From IMG/VR virus record IMGVR_UViG_3300029219_000144: 62,402 nucleotides of DNA; one strand, given 5' to 3'. The DNA comes from a virus. Its lineage: Duplodnaviria; Heunggongvirae; Uroviricota; Caudoviricetes. The notes beneath the pieces are model-generated. The model saw only the letters and a list, made by a program, of their open reading frames with translations, did no database searches and was not told the origin of the DNA. Below are positions 1 to 14,306 of the stretch, one piece after another (within the stretch, counting starts at the first letter, position 1; the number at the start of each line of letters is the position of its first letter). The position numbers were made by a program, and so were the translations under genes.

Positions 1-125
1 TGAAGAGCTTTCATCTGCCCAGCGGTTATTTTTGTGCCTTTAGTTCGTTTAAGCACTTTCTCTAGTGTTTTCCACTCAACCTTAACTCCATCCAGCAATT
101 TTTCCAGATAACTCAACTCGCTCAT
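1..125 (-). CDS. hsdS: Type I restriction-modification specificity subunit HsdS, N-terminal fragment (gene continues beyond window start)
   Basis: Reverse complement of 1-125 reads ATG then [24 protein letters not shown]... with no stop before the window edge; its ATG overlaps the hsdM stop in an ATGA arrangement typical of hsdM-hsdS coupling. Confidence 0.55.
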
Positions 126-2812: not shown

Positions 2813-3913
2813 TCACACTGCGCGGAATGCGATTTCGCCAGGTATTACTTCACCTTGCCAATACATTTGGGCAGCAACGCGATCTGCGAGGTCACGATAA
2901 ATAGCCGTAAATTCGCTATCTGGACGACTAATAACGGTTGGTGTTCCGTTATCCAGATCTTCACGAAGAGAGATATGAAGTGGCATTTGGCCTAACAACT
3001 GCGTGTTGTATTTCTCGGCCAGTTTCTGTGCGCCACCGGTGCCAAAAATTGGCTCGTGATGACCGCAGTTACTGCAAATATGCACACTCATGTTTTCGAC
3101 GATACCCAGTACCGGCACTTCGACTTTTTCGAACATCACAATGCCTTTCTTCGCATCGATCAGCGCGATGTCTTGCGGCGTAGTTACCACAACCGCACCA
3201 GTTACAGGAATGTTCTGCGCCAGCGTCAACTGAATATCACCAGTGCCCGGCGGCATATCGAGAACGAGATAGTCCAGATCAGGCCATAGAGTTTCCTGCA
3301 ACATCTGCATCAGCGCCTTGCTGGCCATCGGTCCACGCCACACCATTGCATTGTCGTCGGTGACCAGATAACCAATAGAGTTGGTTGCCAGGCCATGAGA
3401 CATGATAGGTGCCATGTGAGTACCGTCAGGTGAGGTTGGACGTTGGTTTTCCGCGCCCAGCATGGTTGGAATTGATGGACCATAGATATCGGCATCCAAA
3501 ATACCAACTTTCGCACCTTCAGCAGCCAACGCCAGTGCCAGGTTTACCGCCGTGGAGGATTTACCCACGCCGCCCTTGCCTGAGCTGACGGCGATAATGT
3601 TCTTAACGCCATTAATGCCTGGTTGGTTTTTGACGCGCTTAAGCGTGGCAATGTTGTACGACAGCTTCCAGTCAATAGCCTTTGCGCCAGTGATACGGAG
3701 CAGATCACCACTACATTGCTCTTTCAGGTCTTCAAAAGGCTTATTCCACACGAAAGGCATGATTAGTTCGACATGCAGTGTGTCATCCATCAACGCAACA
3801 TGGTGTAACGCTTTAAGCGTAGTCAGGTTGTGTTTCAGGGTTGGGTGCTGAAAATTAGCCAGCGTACCGGCTACCATTGCTCTCAGGGCATCCGGCGATT
3901 TGGACTCGCTCAT
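2813..3913 (-). CDS. apbC: Iron-sulfur cluster carrier ATPase ApbC/Mrp
   Basis: 366-aa ORF with deviant Walker A SGKGGVGKS, CxxC near the C-terminus (CSNCGHHEP); near-identical to E. coli Mrp as recalled. Confidence 0.92.
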   Translation of the reverse strand: MSESKSPDALRAMVAGTLANFQHPTLKHNLTTLKALHHVALMDDTLHVELIMPFVWNKPFEDLKEQCSGDLLRITGAKAIDWKLSYNIATLKRVKNQPGINGVKNIIAVSSGKGGVGKSSTAVNLALALAAEGAKVGILDADIYGPSIPTMLGAENQRPTSPDGTHMAPIMSHGLATNSIGYLVTDDNAMVWRGPMASKALMQMLQETLWPDLDYLVLDMPPGTGDIQLTLAQNIPVTGAVVVTTPQDIALIDAKKGIVMFEKVEVPVLGIVENMSVHICSNCGHHEPIFGTGGAQKLAEKYNTQLLGQMPLHISLREDLDNGTPTVISRPDSEFTAIYRDLADRVAAQMYWQGEVIPGEIAFRAV

Positions 3914-4070
3914 CCCGTCTCCTTTATTTTAATTTGCGCAATTGTCGCCTTGTAGTGTACTCCAGCTACGACATTTAATCATTTATGAGAAATGCTGTTA
4001 TCACATGGCAGACATAAGGCCATTTTGTTACTATCAAGCCCCTTTTCACTACAAAGAAGTAATGCCTACT

Positions 4071-6104
4071 ATGACCCAAGTCGCGAAGAAAATTCTGGTG
4101 ACGTGCGCGCTGCCGTACGCTAACGGCTCAATCCACCTCGGCCATATGCTGGAGCACATCCAGGCTGATGTCTGGGTTCGTTACCAGCGAATGCGCGGCC
4201 ACGAGGTTAATTTCATCTGTGCCGACGATGCCCACGGTACGCCGATCATGCTGAAAGCACAGCAGCTTGGTATCACACCGGAGCAGATGATTGGCGAAAT
4301 GAGTCAGGAACACCAGACTGATTTCGCAGGCTTTAACATCAGCTATGACAACTATCACTCGACGCACAGCGAAGAGAACCGTCAGTTGTCTGAGCTTATC
4401 TATACTCGCCTGAAAGAGAACGGTTTTATTAAAAACCGCACTATCTCTCAGTTGTACGACCCGGAAAAAGGCATGTTCCTGCCGGATCGTTTTGTAAAAG
4501 GCACCTGCCCGAAATGTAAAGCGCCAGATCAATACGGCGATAACTGTGAAGTCTGCGGCGCAACATATAGCCCGACTGAATTGATCGAGCCGAAATCGGT
4601 GGTTTCTGGCGCTACCCCGGTAATGCGTGATTCCGAACACTTCTTCTTTGATCTGCCTTCTTTCAGCGAAATGTTGCAGGCATGGACCCGCAGCGGCGCG
4701 TTGCAGGAGCAGGTGGCGAACAAAATGCAGGAATGGTTTGAATCCGGCCTGCAACAGTGGGATATCTCCCGCGATGCGCCTTACTTCGGTTTTGAAATTC
4801 CGAACGCGCCGGGCAAATATTTCTACGTCTGGCTGGACGCGCCGATTGGCTACATGGGTTCCTTCAAGAATCTGTGCGACAAGCGCGGCGATACCACCAG
4901 CTTCGATGAATACTGGAAGAAAGACTCCACCGCCGAGCTGTACCACTTCATCGGTAAAGATATTGTTTACTTCCACAGTCTGTTCTGGCCAGCAATGCTG
5001 GAAGGCAGCAACTTCCGCAAGCCGACCAACCTGTTTGTTCATGGCTATGTGACGGTGAACGGCGCGAAGATGTCCAAGTCTCGCGGCACCTTTATTAAAG
5101 CCAGCACCTGGCTGAATCATTTTGACGCTGACAGCCTGCGTTACTACTACACTGCGAAACTCTCTTCGCGCATTGATGATATCGATCTCAACCTGGAGGA
5201 TTTCGTTCAGCGCGTGAATGCCGATATCGTGAACAAAGTGGTTAACCTGGCCTCCCGTAATGCAGGCTTTATCAACAAGCGTTTTGACGGCGTGCTGGCA
5301 AGCGAACTGGCTGACCCGCAACTGTACAAAACCTTTACTGATGCCGCTGAAGTGATTGGCGAAGCATGGGAAAGCCGTGAATTTGGTAAAGCTATCCGTG
5401 AAATCATGGCATTGGCTGACCTGGCTAACCGCTATGTCGATGAACAGGCTCCGTGGGTGGTGGCGAAGCAGGAAGGACGCGATGCCGATCTGCAGGCGAT
5501 TTGCTCTATGGGCATTAACCTGTTCCGCGTGCTGATGACGTACCTGAAGCCGGTACTGCCGAAACTGACTGAACGTGCAGAAGCATTCCTGAATACAGAA
5601 CTGACTTGGGATGGTATCCAGCAACCGCTGCTGGGCCATAAAGTGAATCCGTTCAAGGCACTGTATAACCGCATCGATATGAAGCAGGTTGAAGCACTGG
5701 TGGAAGCATCCAAAGAAGAAGTGAAAGCCACAGCCGCACCGGTAACTGGCCCACTGGCTGACGACCCGATTCAGGAAACTATCACCTTTGACGACTTCGC
5801 CAAAGTTGACCTGCGCGTGGCGCTGATTGAAAACGCAGAGTTTGTAGAAGGTTCTGACAAACTGCTTCGTCTGACACTGGATCTCGGTGGTGAAAAGCGT
5901 AATGTCTTCTCAGGCATCCGTTCTGCTTATCGAGACCCACAGGCACTGATTGGTCGTCACACCATTATGGTGGCTAACCTGGCTCCGCGTAAAATGCGCT
6001 TTGGCATCTCCGAAGGCATGGTGATGGCTGCCGGTCCTGGCGGGAAAGATATTTTCCTGCTAAGCCCGGATGCCGGTGCTAAACCAGGCCACCAGGTTAA
6101 GTAA
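4071..6104 (+). CDS. metG: Methionine--tRNA ligase MetG
   Basis: Start chosen at [29 protein letters not shown] (HLGH class I motif) matching the E. coli MetG N-terminus; KMSKS present; the ORF-track start at 3942 is an in-frame upstream extension. Confidence 0.95.
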
Positions 6105-6125
6105 CTAAACAACCATTCTTCACAA

Positions 6126-6153
6126 TGCCCGGCAACACGCTGGGCATTTTCAT
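6126..6153 (+). terminator. Rho-independent terminator downstream of metG
   Basis: Inverted repeat TGCCCGG..CTGGGCA followed by a T-run, about 22 nt after the metG stop. Confidence 0.7.
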
Positions 6154-6187
6154 ATAGACACAATCCCTCCTGATTTACACAAGCCCT

Positions 6188-6202
6188 AAAACAATTTGTT
6201 TT
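6188..6202. promoter_or_regulatory. 15-bp palindrome AAAACAATTTGTTTT (operator family copy 1)
   Basis: Perfect inverted repeat; first copy of a motif found at least 10 times upstream of start codons in the phage element. Confidence 0.5.
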
Positions 6203-6237
6203 CTACCTTTTGTTGATTGAGATAATAAGCCACATAA

Positions 6238-6253
6238 GAAAACAAATTGTTTA
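6238..6253. promoter_or_regulatory. Palindrome GAAAACAAATTGTTTA (operator family copy 2), abutting the RBS of the 6258 ORF
   Basis: Same palindrome 50 bp after copy 1, immediately followed by GGAG and ATG. Confidence 0.5.
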
Positions 6254-6257
6254 GGAG

Positions 6258-6506
6258 ATGAAGATGTTTGGAACAGCAAAAGAAATCATCGAGAAACTGA
6301 AAAACTATCCAGAAGACGAACCCTTACTCATGGTTATGTGGCACAAAGAAGATATTGCTGAAGTAAGGACAGATCTCACTGATGAACAATGCGTACAGGT
6401 GATGCAAAAAATCAGACAATACCATAACGCTGATGTCGGCGTTAATTGGGAGGTTATATCAACTACGGCGAATGAGTTGTTTCCGAACGGGGTGGTAAAA
6501 TGCTGA
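6258..6506 (+). CDS. hypothetical phage early protein (82 aa)
   Basis: ORF with AGGAG just upstream (second ATG at 6264 has better spacing); preceded by the operator palindrome. Confidence 0.5.
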   Translation: MKMFGTAKEIIEKLKNYPEDEPLLMVMWHKEDIAEVRTDLTDEQCVQVMQKIRQYHNADVGVNWEVISTTANELFPNGVVKC

Positions 6507-6688
6507 AACTCACCAAATTGTATAAGACGACAGTTAGTAGCCCTACCCTCGTTACACAGCATGACTCTGAGTGTCTACCAAATATCTGTTTCGAGCACCA
6601 TACGATCTCGGACTCAATTGGGTACAGAAACGGAGTATGGGGGAGTCAGGGGAGGGAAGAAAAGCTGCGTGATTACGGTGTCACATAG
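6500..6688 (+). CDS. hypothetical small protein (62 aa)
   Basis: ATG overlaps the stop of the upstream ORF (ATGCTGA), suggesting translational coupling; no motif recognised. Confidence 0.3.
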   Translation: MLKLTKLYKTTVSSPTLVTQHDSECLPNICFEHHTISDSIGYRNGVWGSQGREEKLRDYGVT

Positions 6689-6800
6689 CAAACCATCAAG
6701 AACATTCGAAAGGTGCTCGATGTAGGATTTGATGCGGTACAATTCCACCCTGACGCTGAAATAGACGATGGTCTGGAAAATTGGAAATTGTGAGGGATAA

Positions 6801-7199
6801 ATGAAATATGCACCATTGGCACTAATATTTTTTGTGCTTTCTGCTAATGCCACGCCAGTTGAAGAGCCTAACACTATCGTGTACCCACGATGCATGAAAA
6901 TAGATCCGGAAACACACAAGCAATTACCTGGTTACAATATTGTTATGGATATAGGGAATAAATTTAAAATCGTTTCCCCAAATGGGAATTCGGTGATATC
7001 CATCTCGCTTGCCCAAAGTGAAAAAGATAGGAACATGTTCGACGCCTCAGTCGGCGATGTTTACTTCTCTCGTTACCATGTTCAACCTGATGGGAACTTT
7101 CTATACTCAGCCTGGAGTGAAAAGGCGAAAGTTACAGTGCTGTGTAATGGTAAAAGCGGTGAGCGGCATTACGTTGACCCTATTCATTTCGAGAACTGA
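6801..7199 (+). CDS. hypothetical secreted protein (132 aa, N-terminal signal peptide)
   Basis: N-terminus MKYAPLALIFFVLSANA then TPVEEP looks like a Sec signal peptide; RBS GAGGGA 5 nt upstream. Confidence 0.55.
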   Translation: MKYAPLALIFFVLSANATPVEEPNTIVYPRCMKIDPETHKQLPGYNIVMDIGNKFKIVSPNGNSVISISLAQSEKDRNMFDASVGDVYFSRYHVQPDGNFLYSAWSEKAKVTVLCNGKSGERHYVDPIHFEN

Positions 7200-7329: not shown

Positions 7330-8110
7330 GTTGTTTATACAATCAAGAAAACAACTGAATAACAGATCAACGAAACATCAACGCTTTCACCCGATTTGGT
7401 CTAAAAAATTGACGTTTTCACACATCACTGCTTATACCCGTAATTCTACGCAGCAGACAGCGCCACAGCGTCCAATTTTCACCACAGACGACCCAACACA
7501 CTACCAACAAAAACACACGCTCAAAATCGTTCCCGTTGCGTTACACAACCATATAAACAACTTATTTTAAGGCATAGCAAAACAACTAAATAACACACAT
7601 GCCATTCCCCAAAACAACCAACCTCTTTATGGCAGGCTACCGAAAAGACCCACCTCTTCTCCCCAGGCTACCGGACAACCAACCTAACTTTCACAGGCAA
7701 TCCGAAAACATTCATACGCGCGATACCCACGACACGCCATTACCCAAACAGCGAAGAAACACCAGAATCACTGAAACCCCAACGAAGCCTGTAACCGCAA
7801 GGTTTCTCTCAATCCCAAAAGACACGAAACATAACAATCACGGGAAACGCCATTACCCAATACACGAATAACTACAAAAGCCTTCACACACTCCAGACAA
7901 ACAACTCAAACACAATAACGAAAGGAATCGCCAACCTGCCATTACTCCATACACGGAGAAGAACAATCACCAAAACGACGAGAACACCCCATAGAAGAAC
8001 CACCGCAAAACGAACGAAACCACATACACCGACAGAGAGAACAACACGCCCAATTCACCAACAGAAATAGTCGCCGTATAGAACGTTCTGGAAGGAGTGA
8101 GCATTAACGC
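7330..8110 (+). other. ~0.8 kb non-coding tract with strong strand asymmetry (A+C-rich, G/T-poor on the + strand)
   Basis: Visibly few G and T over hundreds of bases (ccaacc, cacgaaac, caaaacgacga motifs); ORFs here lack RBS and have low-complexity translations. Confidence 0.6.
7607..7695 (+). repeat. Degenerate ~85-bp intergenic element, copy A (paired with 10785-10865)
   Basis: Shares aaaacaaccaacctctt .. caggctaccg .. acccacct .. ggctaccg .. caactttc with copy B by eye. Confidence 0.5.
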
Positions 8111-8277
8111 CTATAGAGAGGTTGAGACAGATAAAACACGAAGAAAACACAACATGTATAGCGAAGAAGACAGGTATGTATAAGTGGGGAGGGAAGGAGT
8201 GGTGTCGCCTCCTTTTTCGTATTTATTCAACTCCTGATTTTATCCCCCGTAAAACCCCTACGGTCAGCCTTCGGTCC

Positions 8278-8420
8278 ATACAGGGAAAAGGTTGCATCCC
8301 GCTACAGAAACGGCTGGGTTGCCTTCGGGGAACGGCTGGGGATTTTCAGGGAAACGGTCGAGTTGCCTGTGTGGATTTCGGGAAAAGGCTCGATGCCGGT
8401 TCAGGAACGGCGGCGTACCG
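8278..8420 (+). repeat. Iteron-like cluster: about 6 direct repeats of (C)AGGGAAACGGCT at ~19-32 bp spacing
   Basis: Copies at ~8281, 8305, 8327, 8346, 8378, 8400 (agggaaaagg, cagaaacggc, ggggaacggc, agggaaacgg, gggaaaaggc, caggaacggc). Confidence 0.6.
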
Positions 8421-11421: not shown

Positions 11422-11448
11422 AAGAGGGCCAGAAACGGCCCTTTCTCT
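11422..11448 (+). terminator. Rho-independent terminator
   Basis: AGGGCC agaaac GGCCCT followed by TTCTCT; the loop contains the iteron core AGAAACGG. Confidence 0.6.
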
Positions 11449-11466
11449 ATAGCCACCAGCTGCCGC

Positions 11467-11555
11467 AGGGAAATTTTCAGAAACGGCGAGGAACGTATTC
11501 ATGAGCCGACGGGAAACGGCCAGGATTTTTTCGGGAAACGGCTGCATTCGCCTTT
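11467..11555 (+). repeat. Second iteron-like cluster (3-4 copies of GGGAAACGGC)
   Basis: cagaaacggc, gggaaacggcc and gggaaacggctg within 90 bp; same core as the 8278-8420 cluster. Confidence 0.55.
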
Positions 11556-12011
11556 ATGTAGAAAAAACATCGGGAAGCTGGTGGAATCCAACCAGCGGTT
11601 GTCGGACAGGTGAGCGGGGAAAATTATGATGACTTTCGTCGCCTGAGACATCCAGATTTCTTTCGTAGCGTAATCACATACGTGATTAAGTGGTGTGATT
11701 ATGTGAAAAATCACGCGCACATAATACGCGAGCGGACACAGAACAACACAAAATGCCGATCCGCGCCGACAAATAAACGCGGATCACATAGCAAGACTAA
11801 AAGCCAATGATTAACCATACGCTATAGCGCAATATAACGCGTTTTAAGCGCGTTAATGTGTTAAGTAATGGGTATGTACTGGCAAGGATATAAAAGCGCG
11901 TCTATGGCGTTATTTTGGCGCTTATTTTTATGTTGTTGGAGTGAGTTAAAGACAATAAAAAACGCGCCATCATTGGCGCGTTATGGTGGGAGTATTGGAA
12001 ACGAAAAAAGC

Positions 12012-12048
12012 GCCCATAGTGGGCGCTCGATTTTATTTGTGTAAACTG
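12012..12048. terminator. Bidirectional hairpin terminator AGCGCCCAtagTGGGCGCT flanked by an A-run and a T-run
   Basis: Perfect 8-bp stem; T-rich on both strands. Confidence 0.65.
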
Positions 12049-12263
12049 ATTTTAAATCCCATTTCTACAAACGCTTTTAACATTAAAAAAATATCAGCGT
12101 CGTTCACGTCTGCTTTTTTTCGCTCCTGGTCGCTCAATAAGTCAATTTTGCGCGTTGTTTCATTTATAAGCTCGACTGCGCGCCCAGCGTAACCAGCGAT
12201 CCCAGCGATGCGATTAACATAATATTCGTTATGGACGTTAACGCCAGCGATAAGAACAAACAT
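12033..12263 (-). CDS. hypothetical protein (76 aa), AT-rich moron cassette
   Basis: Minus-strand ORF in a low-GC block; its stop overlaps the terminator hairpin. Confidence 0.45.
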   Translation of the reverse strand: MFVLIAGVNVHNEYYVNRIAGIAGYAGRAVELINETTRKIDLLSDQERKKADVNDADIFLMLKAFVEMGFKISLHK

Positions 12264-12283
12264 GATTAAGCTCCTTAAAAAAA

Positions 12284-12487
12284 TTAAATAGAATTTTGAA
12301 GTTTTCCGATTAATGCGCTTAAACGTAAGTATTCACGTTTGCGCTTGCAATCTCGCTTGCTGTTAAGCAAATCAGAAAACGTAAAATTTAATTGGTCGCG
12401 TTGCGCGATCAAATCATCGATTAATTCCAGTTTATAAGCGCGATACTTTGCGCGATATTCCGCGCGGATCTTGTCATAGCTGACCAT
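12284..12487 (-). CDS. hypothetical protein (67 aa; ORF-track start at 12532 lies inside a hairpin)
   Basis: Start set at MVSYDKIRAEYRAKY with AAGGAG RBS 8 nt upstream. Confidence 0.45.
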   Translation of the reverse strand: MVSYDKIRAEYRAKYRAYKLELIDDLIAQRDQLNFTFSDLLNSKRDCKRKREYLRLSALIGKLQNSI

Positions 12488-12504
12488 TTTTAAAGCTCCT
12501 TTAA

Positions 12505-12523
12505 AGCGCCCATAGTGGGCGCT
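12505..12523. other. Second copy of the hairpin AGCGCCCATAGTGGGCGCT (identical to 12018-12036)
   Basis: Same 19-bp sequence between the 216-aa gene stop and the next gene's RBS. Confidence 0.6.
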
Positions 12524-12535
12524 TGATTCCATTAA

Positions 12536-13186
12536 TTACGCTTTGAAAGCATCAGCTAAATAATTGTAGAAATCATTTTTAATGAAGCGATATTGCTGAG
12601 TACCAGCTTTCGCGCTCCCAGCTCCTTTGACTTTTTCAACAAGTCCAAGACGTTCGCAAAGATTGATCAACTGGTTGGCTTGAGTATAGCCAGCGTCCAA
12701 TTTAATTTCACACGCTTTTTTAGCTTCATTCATTAAATCGAAAACAGCGCCATTGGTGAACGTGTCGATCTCGTCGTTAATCATATCGATTAAAGCGAAT
12801 ACACGAGATCCTGACATATCAGCGATGGAATAAACGCATTTACCAGATTTAATTGATTTAACCAGATAAACCAGTTTTTCCAGAGAATAACTATTAGTCA
12901 TTGCATCACGGAAAAATACTTCTGGCGCTTGTTTGCTTGCTTTAATCGCATAGTAAAAAACAGAGCATAATTTTTCGTCTTCTACAGCGTTTACAACGTT
13001 GTTGATGAAGTAAGCAAGTTTAGTGGTCGCAGCTTGCATATTTGCTTTGTCTGCTTTAGTGTGCGTACCATTTTTATAATGTTCGTTATATGTTTGAGTT
13101 GCCAGATCTGCTTTTTCGCGCAGCTCGTCGGATACAATAGATGCAGCTTCAATGATGGACTTTTTAGAAATGATAATGTTAGCCAT
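12536..13186 (-). CDS. hypothetical protein (216 aa), AT-rich moron cassette
   Basis: Minus-strand ORF in a low-GC block; no motif recognised. Confidence 0.55.
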   Translation of the reverse strand: MANIIISKKSIIEAASIVSDELREKADLATQTYNEHYKNGTHTKADKANMQAATTKLAYFINNVVNAVEDEKLCSVFYYAIKASKQAPEVFFRDAMTNSYSLEKLVYLVKSIKSGKCVYSIADMSGSRVFALIDMINDEIDTFTNGAVFDLMNEAKKACEIKLDAGYTQANQLINLCERLGLVEKVKGAGSAKAGTQQYRFIKNDFYNYLADAFKA

Positions 13187-13423
13187 GATAATTTTTCCTT
13201 ATGTAAATTTAAAATTTATTGTCGTTAGCGTCTTCGCTTTCGACGAGTTCAATTATCGATACGCGAAAAAAGATTGCAAGTGTTTTTTTAAAATTTTTTG
13301 CAGGGATGAAAGTCCTAGAAATAAAAGCGAGATCGTCGAAGGTGTTCCCTAAATAAATAATCGATTCCGGCTTTCGACCTTATATATATTTAGATTATTT
13401 GATTTATAGATATAAAGAAGTGA

Positions 13424-13447
13424 TGTGAAAAATAATAACCGGACTTA
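13424..13447 (-). terminator. Hairpin terminator for the minus-strand gene ending at 13470
   Basis: TAACCGG acttag CCGGTTA followed on the minus strand by a U-rich tract. Confidence 0.5.
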
Positions 13448-13469
13448 GCCGGTTATTAACCTTATAGAT

Positions 13470-13781: not shown

Positions 13782-14306
13782 TCAAAAAGGCAAAATTCGT
13801 TCAACCCAATCGAACAAAACAACTATTTTTCTACCGTTCTCGACACGTAGTGTAACCTGACAAGCATCTGCGCCTGCTGACACCCCCTCAATTTCACGGC
13901 CATCCGCCATGTACACCCTTATAGATTTGTTTGCTTTGTAGGCTTGGTTGCAAATTGCAAAAAAATCGCGGCGTGATGGCCGATTATCGACATAATCAGG
14001 GTGAACTGTTAGTCGACCTTTGAAATCGTGAGCGATACTGTCAACCACACCTGATTCAATTGTACTAATGCGTTCAAGTGGGAGCCTTATACGATTTTCT
14101 TTGTCAAAAGGGGCTGGGCAAAGGTCAACTTTGTTACGAGATGGCATGAGGCCATAAACGTACATGCAAAACGCCTGGCCATCTTCGAGAGTGACCCTTA
14201 CAGGAATTTGTTCTCTGCGCCAGAACATCAGTAGTTTTTCAACGTTAGTGTAATCTCGCGGCCAGAGTTCAGCTTGGATACCGTAGGTAATATCTTTGGT
14301 TGTCAT
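13782..14306 (-). CDS. hypothetical protein (174 aa; ORF-track start 14384 overlaps the upstream gene)
   Basis: Start set at MTTKDITYG, 4 nt after the upstream stop. Confidence 0.45.
   Translation of the reverse strand: MTTKDITYGIQAELWPRDYTNVEKLLMFWRREQIPVRVTLEDGQAFCMYVYGLMPSRNKVDLCPAPFDKENRIRLPLERISTIESGVVDSIAHDFKGRLTVHPDYVDNRPSRRDFFAICNQAYKANKSIRVYMADGREIEGVSAGADACQVTLRVENGRKIVVLFDWVERILPF

What the first reader, a model, noticed from the sequence alone, without database searches (positions are those of the whole stretch)
12012..13447. AT-rich minus-strand moron cassette bracketed by two identical 19-bp hairpins
Three minus-strand genes (216, 67 and 76 aa) sit in a low-GC block. The distal two are bracketed by exact copies of AGCGCCCATAGTGGGCGCT at 12018-12036 and 12505-12523. 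Orientation opposite to neighbours, atypical composition and their own terminators are hallmarks of acquired accessory genes, often superinfection-exclusion or anti-defence functions. None of the three proteins matches a family I can name.
Basis: partly seen in the sequence, partly recalled or inferred. Interest (0 to 1): 0.56.

Follow-up and report, generated by a model that had tools for sequence, protein, structure and literature searches.

The report
Lysogeny-silent regulator operon with swappable cassettes
This is not a foreign "moron" island: it is a conserved, prophage-silent operon of SSU5-type phage-plasmids, in which a core gene for a DNA-binding protein of unknown role is followed by small interchangeable genes separated by copies of one terminator hairpin.

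Summary
The sequence observation mostly holds. There are three minus-strand genes (216, 67 and 76 aa). The block has the lowest G+C of the window (37.3% against 46.8%). Two exact copies of AGCGCCCATAGTGGGCGCT bracket the two small genes, but the first copy lies at 12009-12027, not 12018-36.

The window is an SSU5-like phage-plasmid. The "acquired moron" reading is only partly right:
- The 216-aa gene is about as widespread as the large terminase (803 against 816 PLSDB records), syntenic from pMT1 and pHCM2 to remote relatives, and under strong purifying selection.
- It encodes a lineage-restricted protein with a predicted C-terminal winged helix.
- The small genes are accessory. Relatives carry none, one or two of three cassette types. 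They have no room for a promoter of their own.
- In phage Cyrano the homologues of the 216-aa and 76-aa genes are transcriptionally silent in the lysogen.

The hairpin is the operon's intrinsic terminator. The distal copy keeps its U-tract and is backed by a second terminator. The proximal copy has lost its U-tract to the ribosome-binding site of the next cassette, so I infer it is leaky. Stems never vary, loops flip repeatedly, and remote relatives use different hairpins.

The function of the proteins is unknown. My best guess is a lytic-phase DNA-binding regulator with small partner proteins. Interest is moderate to low.

The parts
13252..13279 (-). Predicted sigma-70 promoter of the operon: -35 TTGCAA (13279-13274), 16-nt spacer, -10 GATAAT (13257-13252), preceded by an A-tract
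   Evidence: Consensus scan. Both hexamers and TCGATAATT are conserved in 10 relatives whose synonymous sites are close to saturation (alignment A2). The start site has not been mapped.
13280..13432 (-). Conserved AT-rich upstream region (30.7% G+C over 13187-13469) with invariant blocks ATTTATTTAGGnAACACCTTCGA and TTTATTTCTAnGACTTT; candidate regulator-binding sites
   Evidence: Alignment A2 and composition. None of the blocks recurs elsewhere in the window.
13433..13458 (-). Terminator hairpin of the upstream 98/102-aa gene, which makes the 216 operon a separate transcription unit
   Evidence: 10-bp stem followed by TTTTTCAC. Nearly invariant in the 10 relatives compared; two of them change one loop base and one of those also a stem base.
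12536..13186 (-). Core gene for a 216-aa lineage-specific protein: N-terminal long helical hairpin, a helical middle part and a C-terminal winged helix-turn-helix
12505..12523 (-). Proximal hairpin copy, 13 nt after the 216 stop codon; stem GCGCCCA/UGGGCGC, followed by UUUAAAGGAGC (no U-tract). Inferred leaky terminator or 3'-end stabiliser
   Evidence: (centroid -15.1 kcal/mol).
12489..12505 (-). Weak AT-rich mini-hairpin that encloses the Shine-Dalgarno sequence of the 67-aa gene (UUUAAAG-GAG-CUUUAAA)
   Evidence: SSU5 and Enterobacter have AUUUUUA-AGGA-UAAAAAU at the same place, a different sequence with the same pairing. It is not in the minimum-free-energy fold, so it is marginal.
12284..12487 (-). 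67-aa gene (cassette type '67'): basic, predicted helical
   Evidence: PHROG 6145. The family is confined to SSU5-like elements. dN/dS 0.05-0.12. A visibly similar 67-aa protein sharing the conserved motifs follows 61%-identical 216 homologues, and a 64-aa one follows a 53%-identical homologue.
12033..12263 (-). 76-aa gene (cassette type '76A'), with its own SD AAGGAG placed directly after the 67-aa stop codon
12004..12027 (-). Distal hairpin copy (12009-12027) plus U-tract (12004-12008): the intrinsic terminator that ends the operon
   Evidence: Fold -15.6 kcal/mol, z -4.0. The tail TTTTT(T/C)CGT follows the last copy in almost every locus that carries a small-gene cassette; loci with 216 alone mostly have TTTTTTGTT.
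11961..11982 (-). Second, back-up terminator hairpin AACGCGCC-AAUGAU-GGCGCGUU followed by UUUUAUUG
   Evidence: both hairpins together -30.6 kcal/mol, z -5.1. Conserved in relatives, again with loop inversions.

Best explanation
The block is one transcription unit of an SSU5-type phage-plasmid and is kept off in the plasmid-prophage state.

Transcription and products. A conserved sigma-70-type promoter at about 13252-13279 drives first a core gene for a 216-aa, lineage-specific winged-helix DNA-binding protein. It then drives, at a lower level, whichever small-gene cassettes the particular element carries; here these are the 67-aa and 76-aa genes.

The hairpins. The two identical 19-bp hairpins are two copies of the operon's own intrinsic terminator. 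The distal copy keeps its U-tract and is backed by a second terminator, so it ends the transcript. The proximal copy sits 13 nt after the 216 stop codon, and its U-tract has been replaced by the ribosome-binding site of the next cassette. It should therefore act as a leaky terminator or a 3'-end protector that sets 216 well above the small proteins.

Cassette turnover. Each cassette has the form [SD - ORF - short linker - hairpin]. The repeated hairpin+SD junction (about 35 nt) is a plausible substrate for gain, loss and exchange of cassettes by ordinary homologous or slipped recombination.

Shown: the anatomy, the conservation, the coding status, the fold prediction and the silence in one lysogen.

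Inferred: leakiness of the proximal hairpin, the recombination route, and the role of the proteins. My guess for that role is a lytic-phase DNA-binding regulator with small partner or effector proteins.
For: - Identity of the element: 100% identical to E. coli plasmid CP099286 and 83% to phage SSU5.
- Core status of the 216 gene. Its position relative to the helicase and the FljA-like gene is kept even at 31-33% protein identity.
- All three ORFs are under purifying selection although synonymous sites differ by 55-75%.
- Promoter and upstream blocks are conserved.
- The hairpin starts 11-13 nt after the stop codon in about 90 loci. A T-run follows only the last copy, and an SD follows the internal copies.
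- Cronobacter pGK1025B_1 and several IMG/VR loci have 216 plus a single hairpin with TTTTTTGTT. L034 and L082 have three hairpins around two cassettes. L030 and L061 have two or three tandem 44-nt hairpin units with no gene between them.
- Stems are invariant and loops are variable. Remote relatives have a different GC-rich hairpin at the same place, as expected if the structure is what matters.
- Winged-helix prediction. The recognition-helix segment is the best conserved part of the family.
- Silence in the Cyrano lysogen: PMC9928086 S1 Table, with log2 values 2.3-2.8 in LB (2.32 is the floor), similar to terminase and capsid genes.
Against: - No transcript ends have been mapped, so the promoter, the read-through at the proximal hairpin and the co-transcription of the three genes are predictions.
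- A weak promoter-like match inside the 216 gene (12683-12711) could feed the small genes independently.
- The expression data come from one relative (Cyrano), which lacks the 67-aa gene, and from uninduced cultures only. No induced time course exists, so 'lytic-phase' is inferred from silence.
- Strict sequence identity of the stem across 72-100% identical genomes is stronger conservation than a generic terminator needs.
Confidence: 0.55

Rival explanations
1. Anti-defence or host-takeover locus. The small, variable, lineage-restricted proteins (67, 76A, 76B) would be early lytic effectors such as inhibitors of host defence systems. The conserved winged-helix protein would be their dedicated transcriptional regulator, in the manner of anti-CRISPR-associated (Aca) repressors.
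For: - A conserved HTH-type gene lies next to interchangeable small orphan genes in one operon.
- The operon is silent in lysogeny, as expected for lytic-phase genes.
- No family assignment is possible.
- The region is AT-rich and has its own promoter.
Against: - The gene order is the reverse of canonical acr-aca operons.
- The 67-aa family is old and strongly constrained (dN/dS 0.05-0.12), and it accompanies 53-61% identical 216 homologues. This looks more like a fixed partner than an arms-race gene.
- There is no hit in PADLOC, which models defence rather than anti-defence, and no anti-defence library was available.
- The 216-aa protein is much larger than known Aca proteins (my recollection).
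Confidence: 0.15
2. Replication or segregation function. The 216-aa winged-helix protein would bind the iteron-like RGAAACGGC arrays next to the operon and serve as an origin-binding or centromere-binding protein of the phage-plasmid, for example for lytic replication.
For: - Eight of the nine matches to RGRAACGGY in the window fall in two clusters of about 110 nt (8306-8411 and 11431-11542), all on the plus strand, with spacings near multiples of 11.
- Cluster B lies about 420 nt beyond the operon's second terminator and is conserved in all 10 relatives.
- CCGTTTCC-type arrays sit at the same relative place in L111, L114 and L115, whose 216 homologues are 33-54% identical.
- The recognition helix is conserved across these.
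- TubR- and AspA-type centromere binders are among the fold hits.
- A helicase and ParB-like genes lie in the same gene block.
Against: - The Serratia relatives (63% identical 216, same recognition helix) have no such array within 2.5 kb.
- The arrays lie directly after the stop codons of plus-strand genes and could belong to those genes or to another binding protein.
- The typed plasmid replicons (IncFIB, rep_cluster_488, rep_cluster_763) differ among elements that share this gene, so it is not the plasmid Rep.
- There is no sequence or global fold match to any initiator.
Confidence: 0.12
3. Prophage-expressed moron cassette: horizontally acquired accessory genes giving superinfection exclusion or another lysogenic-conversion trait.
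For: Low G+C, terminator-flanked small genes, presence/absence variation of the small genes, and no known family.
Against: - The 216 gene is core.
- All three families are confined to this phage-plasmid lineage.
- The small genes have no promoter of their own.
- Homologues are at the floor of expression in the Cyrano lysogen and were not listed among its 13 morons.
Confidence: 0.08
4. The 19-bp palindrome would be a sequence-specific protein-binding or recombination site (an operator for the winged-helix dimer, or a target of a recombinase that moves cassettes, as in an integron) and not merely a terminator.
For: - The stem sequence is invariant in about 165 copies although neutral sites are near saturation.
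- Copies always delimit cassettes.
- Tandem amplification of the hairpin unit occurs.
- Loop flips recur.
Against: - Remote relatives keep the recognition helix of the 216 protein but have unrelated hairpin sequences at the same position.
- The palindrome is absent from the operon's promoter.
- The same 19-mer terminates an unrelated gene in another kind of phage (L013 and L100).
- No integron-type integrase or attC architecture is present, and all variation being in the loop is what a structural RNA hairpin predicts.
Confidence: 0.08

Closest known systems
Phage 'morons' (gene plus own promoter and terminator inserted between conserved genes, expressed from the prophage; defined on HK97/HK022-type lambdoid phages)
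   Same: Small extra genes, each ending in a factor-independent terminator hairpin, are inserted at a fixed point between conserved genes. Their presence varies among relatives and their composition is atypical.
   Different: The cassettes have no promoter of their own. They ride on the transcript of a core gene. The locus is silent in the one lysogen examined, and the largest gene of the 'cassette' is core.
Intrinsic (Rho-independent) terminators and intercistronic stem-loops that set differential expression within operons
   Same: An 8-9 bp GC-rich stem with a 3-nt loop, 6-13 nt after a stop codon. The distal copy has a U-tract and a tandem back-up terminator. Structure, not sequence, is conserved in remote relatives.
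   Different: The same hairpin sequence is reused two or three times in one operon as the boundary of every cassette. The internal copies have had the U-tract replaced by a Shine-Dalgarno sequence.
Winged-helix transcription factors and DNA binders of the ArsR/SmtB, MarR, PadR and TubR type
   Different: No sequence-profile match to any of these families. The roughly 125-residue N-terminal helical part has no counterpart. No ligand or metal site can be recognised.
acr-aca (anti-CRISPR plus HTH regulator) operons
   Same: A conserved HTH-type gene is linked to interchangeable small orphan genes under one strong promoter, in a mobile element.
   Different: The gene order is reversed, the regulator is much larger, and there is no similarity to known Acr or Aca proteins that I could test.
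Integron gene cassettes bounded by attC hairpins
   Same: Promoterless small ORFs are stacked head to tail, each ending in a hairpin-forming repeat and expressed from an upstream promoter.
   Different: No IntI integrase lies nearby. The repeats are 19-bp perfect palindromes and not 57-141-bp imperfect attC sites, and they are plainly terminators.

Membership tests
Phage moron | Own promoter immediately upstream of the inserted gene | tested here: not met
   Only 17-20 nt, containing the SD, lie between the hairpin or the preceding stop codon and the ATG of the 67-aa and 76-aa genes. The only conserved promoter precedes the core 216 gene.
Phage moron | Own factor-independent terminator downstream | tested here: met
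   Distal hairpin plus U-tract plus a second terminator. Every cassette in relatives ends in a hairpin copy.
Phage moron | Expressed from the repressed prophage | tested here: not met
   Published RNA-seq of the Cyrano lysogen: CYRAN_113 and CYRAN_112 are at or near the floor in LB and absent from the authors' moron list (PMC9928086). This is one relative only.
Phage moron | Present in some relatives and absent from others at the same position | tested here: inconclusive
   Met for the small genes (517 and 291 of about 803 plasmids). Not met for the 216-aa gene (803 against 816 for terL).
Intrinsic terminator | GC-rich stem-loop directly followed by a U-tract, downstream of a stop codon | tested here: met
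   Distal copy: 8-9 bp stem, -13 to -16 kcal/mol, UUUUUUCG. The proximal copy lacks the U-tract (UUUAAAGG), so for that copy the feature is not met.
Intrinsic terminator | Structure conserved while sequence is free to change over long distances | tested here: met
   Loci of 31-63% identical homologues carry different GC-rich hairpins 10-20 nt after the stop codon, most with T-runs. Within the SSU5 clade only loop positions vary.
Intrinsic terminator | Transcripts actually end there | not testable with these tools
   Needs 3'-end mapping (Term-seq) in an induced culture.
ArsR/MarR/PadR-type winged-helix regulators | Match to the family sequence profile | tested here: not met
   No Pfam, NCBIfam or PDB-sequence hit at permissive thresholds.
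ArsR/MarR/PadR-type winged-helix regulators | Winged helix-turn-helix fold | tested here: met
Integron cassette array | IntI tyrosine recombinase and attC sites with R''-L''/L'-R' architecture | tested here: not met
   The neighbouring genes are a helicase, ParB-like genes, an FljA-like gene and unnamed proteins. The repeat is a 19-bp perfect palindrome.
Toxin-antitoxin module | Constitutively expressed pair with a recognisable toxin or antitoxin domain | tested here: not met
   No domain hits. Silent in the lysogen. The gene pairings vary.
acr-aca anti-defence operon | Similarity to known Acr/Aca families, or a demonstrated inhibition of a defence system | not testable with these tools
   No anti-defence profile library was available. 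Needs plating assays.

The most novel reading that the evidence does not exclude
The locus would be a terminator-hairpin-delimited cassette site. In this reading SSU5-type phage-plasmids swap promoterless small lytic-phase genes, possibly anti-defence effectors, behind a dedicated winged-helix regulator. The invariant 19-bp hairpin would serve both as the transcriptional punctuation and as the recombination substrate. The recurrent loop flips and the tandem hairpin arrays would be footprints of that hairpin-mediated recombination. This would make it an integrase-free analogue of an integron cassette array.
Probability: 0.12. Interest if true: 0.6.

Novelty: new member of a known kind. Interest (0 to 1): 0.33.

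Why it matters
SSU5-type phage-plasmids are very common in clinical Enterobacterales. They include Y. pestis pMT1 and S. Typhi pHCM2, yet their regulatory circuitry is almost entirely unannotated. This analysis does three things:
- It moves a block that looks like foreign cargo into the conserved backbone.
- It assigns a predicted DNA-binding fold to a core orphan protein.
- It gives a simple, testable model of how one terminator hairpin organises expression and turnover of small accessory genes.

If the small cassettes prove to be anti-defence or host-takeover factors, the locus would be a convenient place to mine for such genes across hundreds of plasmids.

Tried and rejected
**Searches that found nothing**
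- Pfam, NCBIfam and PADLOC for the three proteins: nothing significant. PHROGs gives only unnamed families, and the label 'MIT family metal ion transporter' on PHROG 6145 / SSU5_119 is implausible for a 67-aa soluble-looking protein.
- PDB sequence profile search: no hit.
- Foldseek against viral BFVD: no global match.
- Rfam on the whole window: only a tRNA at 61363.
- Recurrence of the promoter-region blocks elsewhere in the window: none. One exact 11-mer match at 232 lies inside a coding region and I treat it as chance.
- Accession-based literature search: no papers.

- The afdb50 library was not available.
- A profile search of 1.84 billion representatives found only 23 members, all of the same family.
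- The search for related loci on species-representative genomes returned only five close relatives, because the peptide patterns were strict. Remote loci were obtained instead through the look-up of encoding contigs.
- Tandem Repeats Finder did not pick up the iteron-like arrays.
- The 2026 heteroresistance preprint on an SSU5-like element could not be opened.

**Ideas considered and dropped**
- Toxin-antitoxin module: silent in the lysogen and no domains.
- Integron: no integrase and no attC.
- Hairpin as operator of the 216-aa protein: the hairpin sequence changes in remote relatives while the recognition helix does not.
- The 82-aa extended reading of the 67-aa ORF: SSU5 has an in-frame stop, and the loop flips would alter the extension.
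- The 76-aa ORF next to P0122 in L117 is not a homologue (18% identity).
Full report
**What the window is.** The 2.1 kb around the finding is 100% identical to E. coli plasmid CP099286 (110 kb, non-mobilisable). It is 97% identical to 'Escherichia phage CMS-2020a', 92% to phage Cyrano (pLF82) and 83% to Salmonella phage SSU5. The surrounding annotation shows tape measure, capsid, portal and terminase genes, two ParB-like genes, a DEAD-box helicase and many unnamed genes. The window is therefore an SSU5-type phage-plasmid.

**Checking the observation.**
- The three minus-strand ORFs exist: 12536-13186 (216 aa), 12284-12487 (67 aa) and 12033-12263 (76 aa).
- The 19-mer AGCGCCCATAGTGGGCGCT occurs exactly twice in 62 kb, at 12009-12027 and 12505-12523, against none expected by chance.
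- The interval is the most AT-rich of the window: 37.3% against 46.8% G+C, the 0.2th percentile.
- The orientation claim is half right. The genes on the left are convergent plus-strand genes, but the five genes on the right, up to the helicase, are on the same strand.
- A terminator hairpin at 13433-13458 separates those genes from the block.

**Are these real genes, and are they cargo?** Against pMT1, pHCM2, SSU5, Klebsiella, Enterobacter and Cronobacter relatives, synonymous sites differ by 55-75%. Even so, dN/dS is 0.03-0.10 for the 216-aa gene, 0.05-0.12 for the 67-aa gene and 0.10-0.37 for the 76-aa gene. All three are therefore coding.

None has a Pfam, NCBIfam, PADLOC or PDB-sequence match, and PHROGs places them only in unnamed families. 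Searches of 5.8 billion proteins find each family only on contigs of about 100-115 kb from Enterobacterales. An exhaustive profile search of 1.84 billion representatives finds just 23 members of the 216-aa family. There is no sign of an outside donor.

In PLSDB the 216-aa gene is found in 803 plasmids and the large terminase gene in 816 at near-full length. The counts per host genus are nearly identical: Klebsiella 339/342, Escherichia 217/206, Enterobacter 91/91, Yersinia 62/62, Salmonella 49/49. The 67-aa gene is in 517 plasmids and the 76-aa gene, in the form present here, in 291. So the large gene belongs to the backbone and the two small ones are accessory.

Synteny confirms this. The order helicase, small gene, FljA-like regulator, an intergenic gap of about 400 nt, then the 216 homologue is kept even where the protein is only 31-42% identical.

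**Anatomy in the sense of the mRNA.**
1. A conserved promoter (TTGCAA, 16 nt, GATAAT; 13279-13252), with an A-tract and several invariant upstream blocks, precedes a leader of about 55 nt and the 216-aa gene.
2. Thirteen nucleotides after its stop codon comes the hairpin (stem GCGCCCA/UGGGCGC, loop CUA, about -15 kcal/mol).
3. The hairpin is followed at once by UUUAAAGGAGCUUUAAAAAUG, the ribosome-binding site and start of the 67-aa gene.
4. The 67-aa stop codon is followed by UUUUUUUAAGGAGCUUAAUCAUG, the start of the 76-aa gene.
5. Six nucleotides after the 76-aa stop codon comes the second hairpin copy, now followed by UUUUUUCGUUUCC.
6. About 25 nt further on lies a second terminator, AACGCGCC...GGCGCGUUUUUU (11961-11982).

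There is no space for a promoter in front of either small gene.

**What relatives show.** I compared ten annotated relatives, 94 IMG/VR loci retrieved by the hairpin and five loci from species-representative genomes. In about 90 of these loci the hairpin begins 11-13 nt after the stop codon of the 216-aa gene. The arrangements found are:
- 216-HP alone, for example Cronobacter pGK1025B_1, where the hairpin carries a full T-run;
- 216-HP-67-HP (SSU5, many Klebsiella and Enterobacter);
- 216-HP-76A-HP (Cyrano);
- 216-HP-76B-HP (pMT1, pHCM2; 76B is a 50%-identical allele);
- 216-HP-67-76A-HP (this window);
- 216-HP-67-76B-HP;
- 216-HP-76B-HP-76A-HP, with three hairpins;
- in a 61%-identical lineage, 216-HP-(a visibly similar 67-aa gene sharing the conserved motifs)-HP-HP;
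- in a 48%-identical lineage, two or three tandem 44-nt hairpin units with no gene between them.

A T-run follows only the last copy, and every internal copy is followed by a Shine-Dalgarno sequence. Each cassette type keeps its own short linker before its hairpin: UAAAAUCGA for 76A, UAAAAACAAUA for 76B and UAAGCAAUA for the SSU5-type 67. So the unit of exchange is [SD-ORF-linker-hairpin]. The junction hairpin+UUUAAGGAGCUU is repeated within one operon. Deletion between the two AAGGAGCUU repeats of this window would give exactly the Cyrano arrangement. This is most simply read as ordinary homologous or slipped recombination on short repeats, but that is an inference.

**What the hairpin is.** In about 165 copies the stem never changes, and all variation is in the loop: CTA in most; TAG, the exact inversion of CTA, in 9 proximal and 10 distal copies; and TTA, ATA, CAA, TTG (the inversion of CAA) and GCAA. 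Flipped and unflipped loops occur in loci whose 216 genes are 98-99% identical, so the flips are recurrent events. Small inversions of hairpin loops through template switching within a palindrome are well known; this is my own knowledge of the quasipalindrome and chloroplast-spacer literature and was not tested here.

In remote relatives (31-63% identical protein) the gene is still followed within 10-20 nt by a GC-rich hairpin, usually with a T-run and sometimes followed by another small ORF and a second terminator. The hairpin sequence there is different. The same 19-mer also ends an unrelated gene in another kind of phage (L013, L100).

Together this identifies the element as an intrinsic-terminator stem-loop. 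It argues against a sequence-specific operator, all the more because the presumed recognition helix of the 216-aa protein is conserved in relatives whose hairpins differ. By the usual rules a proximal copy without its U-tract should terminate poorly. I infer that it acts as a leaky terminator or a 3'-end protector that keeps the small proteins below the level of the 216-aa protein.

**The proteins.**
- *76 aa.* One of five models (pLDDT 82, the others about 50) is a small ferredoxin/ACT-like alpha-beta fold with only generic matches.
- *67 aa.* It is basic and looks helical from its sequence; no structure was predicted for it. It is the older partner, because homologues accompany 53% and 61% identical 216 genes.

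**Expression.** The only relevant public data I found are the LF82/Cyrano transcriptomes (PMC9928086). [quoted passage not shown] CYRAN_113 (the 216-aa homologue) and CYRAN_112 (76A) are not among them. Their values are 2.3-2.8 on a log2(fpkm+5) scale whose floor is 2.32, like terminase and capsid genes. They rise to about 5.6 (CYRAN_113) and 4.4-4.9 (CYRAN_112) only in the 6-h macrophage samples, where several structural genes rise too. So in the plasmid-prophage state the operon is off. This speaks against a lysogenic-conversion role and for a lytic-phase or otherwise conditional role.

**Best explanation and rivals.** I take the block to be a separately promoted, lysogeny-silent operon. It has a core winged-helix DNA-binding protein followed by exchangeable small-gene cassettes punctuated by copies of one terminator hairpin (confidence about 0.55 for this picture, much lower for any specific protein function). 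The rivals are:
- an anti-defence or host-takeover locus with a dedicated regulator (0.15);
- an origin-binding or centromere-binding role linked to the neighbouring iteron-like arrays (0.12);
- the hairpin as a specific protein or recombinase site (0.08).

None can be settled without experiments.

**Comparison with what is known, and novelty.** The locus works like a stack of terminator-ended, moron-like insertions. It fails two defining features of morons (own promoter, prophage expression), and its largest gene is backbone. It is ordinary in its parts: a sigma-70 promoter, intrinsic terminators and a winged-helix protein. Three things are unusual: the same hairpin is reused as every cassette boundary, the loop flips are frequent, and all three proteins are lineage-restricted orphans. 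I rate it a new member of known kinds, of moderate to low interest (0.33), with a small chance of being a useful cassette hotspot for anti-defence genes.

Noticed in passing
window 8306-8411 and 11431-11542 (+ strand): There are two clusters of iteron-like direct repeats RGAAACGGC. Eight of the nine matches to RGRAACGGY in the whole window lie here, against 3.4 expected in total. Spacings are 22/22/30/23 nt and 48/33/22 nt. The clusters flank five small unnamed plus-strand genes. Cluster B is conserved in all relatives, and CCGTTTCC-type arrays sit at the same place in remote relatives L111, L114 and L115 but not in the Serratia loci. They may be an origin, a centromere or a regulator array. 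The binding protein is unknown.
   Followed up: partly
window ~7400-8160: About 750 nt without any annotated gene in the identical plasmid record. The plus strand is extremely A/C-rich and poor in G and T. There is no Rfam match. It lies directly upstream of iteron cluster A.
   Followed up: no
window 11600-12500: This stretch has the highest density of CGCG and GCGC tetranucleotides in the window (11-14 per 600 nt against a mean of about 2), embedded in otherwise AT-rich DNA. Part of it reflects the terminator stems and the YRAKYRAY repeat of the 67-aa protein. Part of it is in the non-coding stretch 11700-11960 (motifs such as ATAACGCG, TAAGCGCG and AAAGCGCG).
   Followed up: partly
window 12489-12505; L002 6328-6345: A 7-bp AT-rich mini-hairpin encloses the Shine-Dalgarno sequence of the 67-aa gene. 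It has a different sequence but the same pairing in SSU5 and Enterobacter (UUUAAAG-GAG-CUUUAAA against AUUUUUA-AGGA-UAAAAAU). It could be a weak translational control element. It is not part of the minimum-free-energy fold.
   Followed up: partly
hairpins at window 12009-12027, 12505-12523 and 11961-11982, and their copies in L002-L111: The 3-6 nt hairpin loops are repeatedly found exactly inverted (CTA/TAG, CAA/TTG, AACAAT/ATTGTT) between otherwise near-identical elements, while the stems stay unchanged.
   Followed up: yes
window 13782-14306 (- strand): The gene two positions upstream of the operon is a full-length homologue of FljA, the repressor of phase-1 flagellin (Pfam Flag1_repress, E 1.5e-84). 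It is conserved next to the 216-aa gene even in remote relatives. A flagellin-translation repressor on a phage-plasmid backbone is curious.
   Followed up: no
window ~3750-6900 (by mapping to CP099286 77318-80609): This E. coli member carries metG (methionine-tRNA ligase) and apbC (Fe-S cluster carrier) copies in its accessory region.
   Followed up: no
L013 12916-12934; L100 1473-1491: The identical 19-mer hairpin also ends a small gene downstream of a spike/PAAR-like gene in an unrelated phage type. This shows that the sequence is not unique to this locus.
   Followed up: partly
SSU5 record NC_018843, SSU5_119 and SSU5_118: The 67-aa gene is annotated 'MIT family metal ion transporter' in SSU5, and that label has propagated into PHROG 6145. 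It is almost certainly a mis-annotation. SSU5_118 is a plus-strand ORF lying over the terminator region and is probably spurious.
   Followed up: partly
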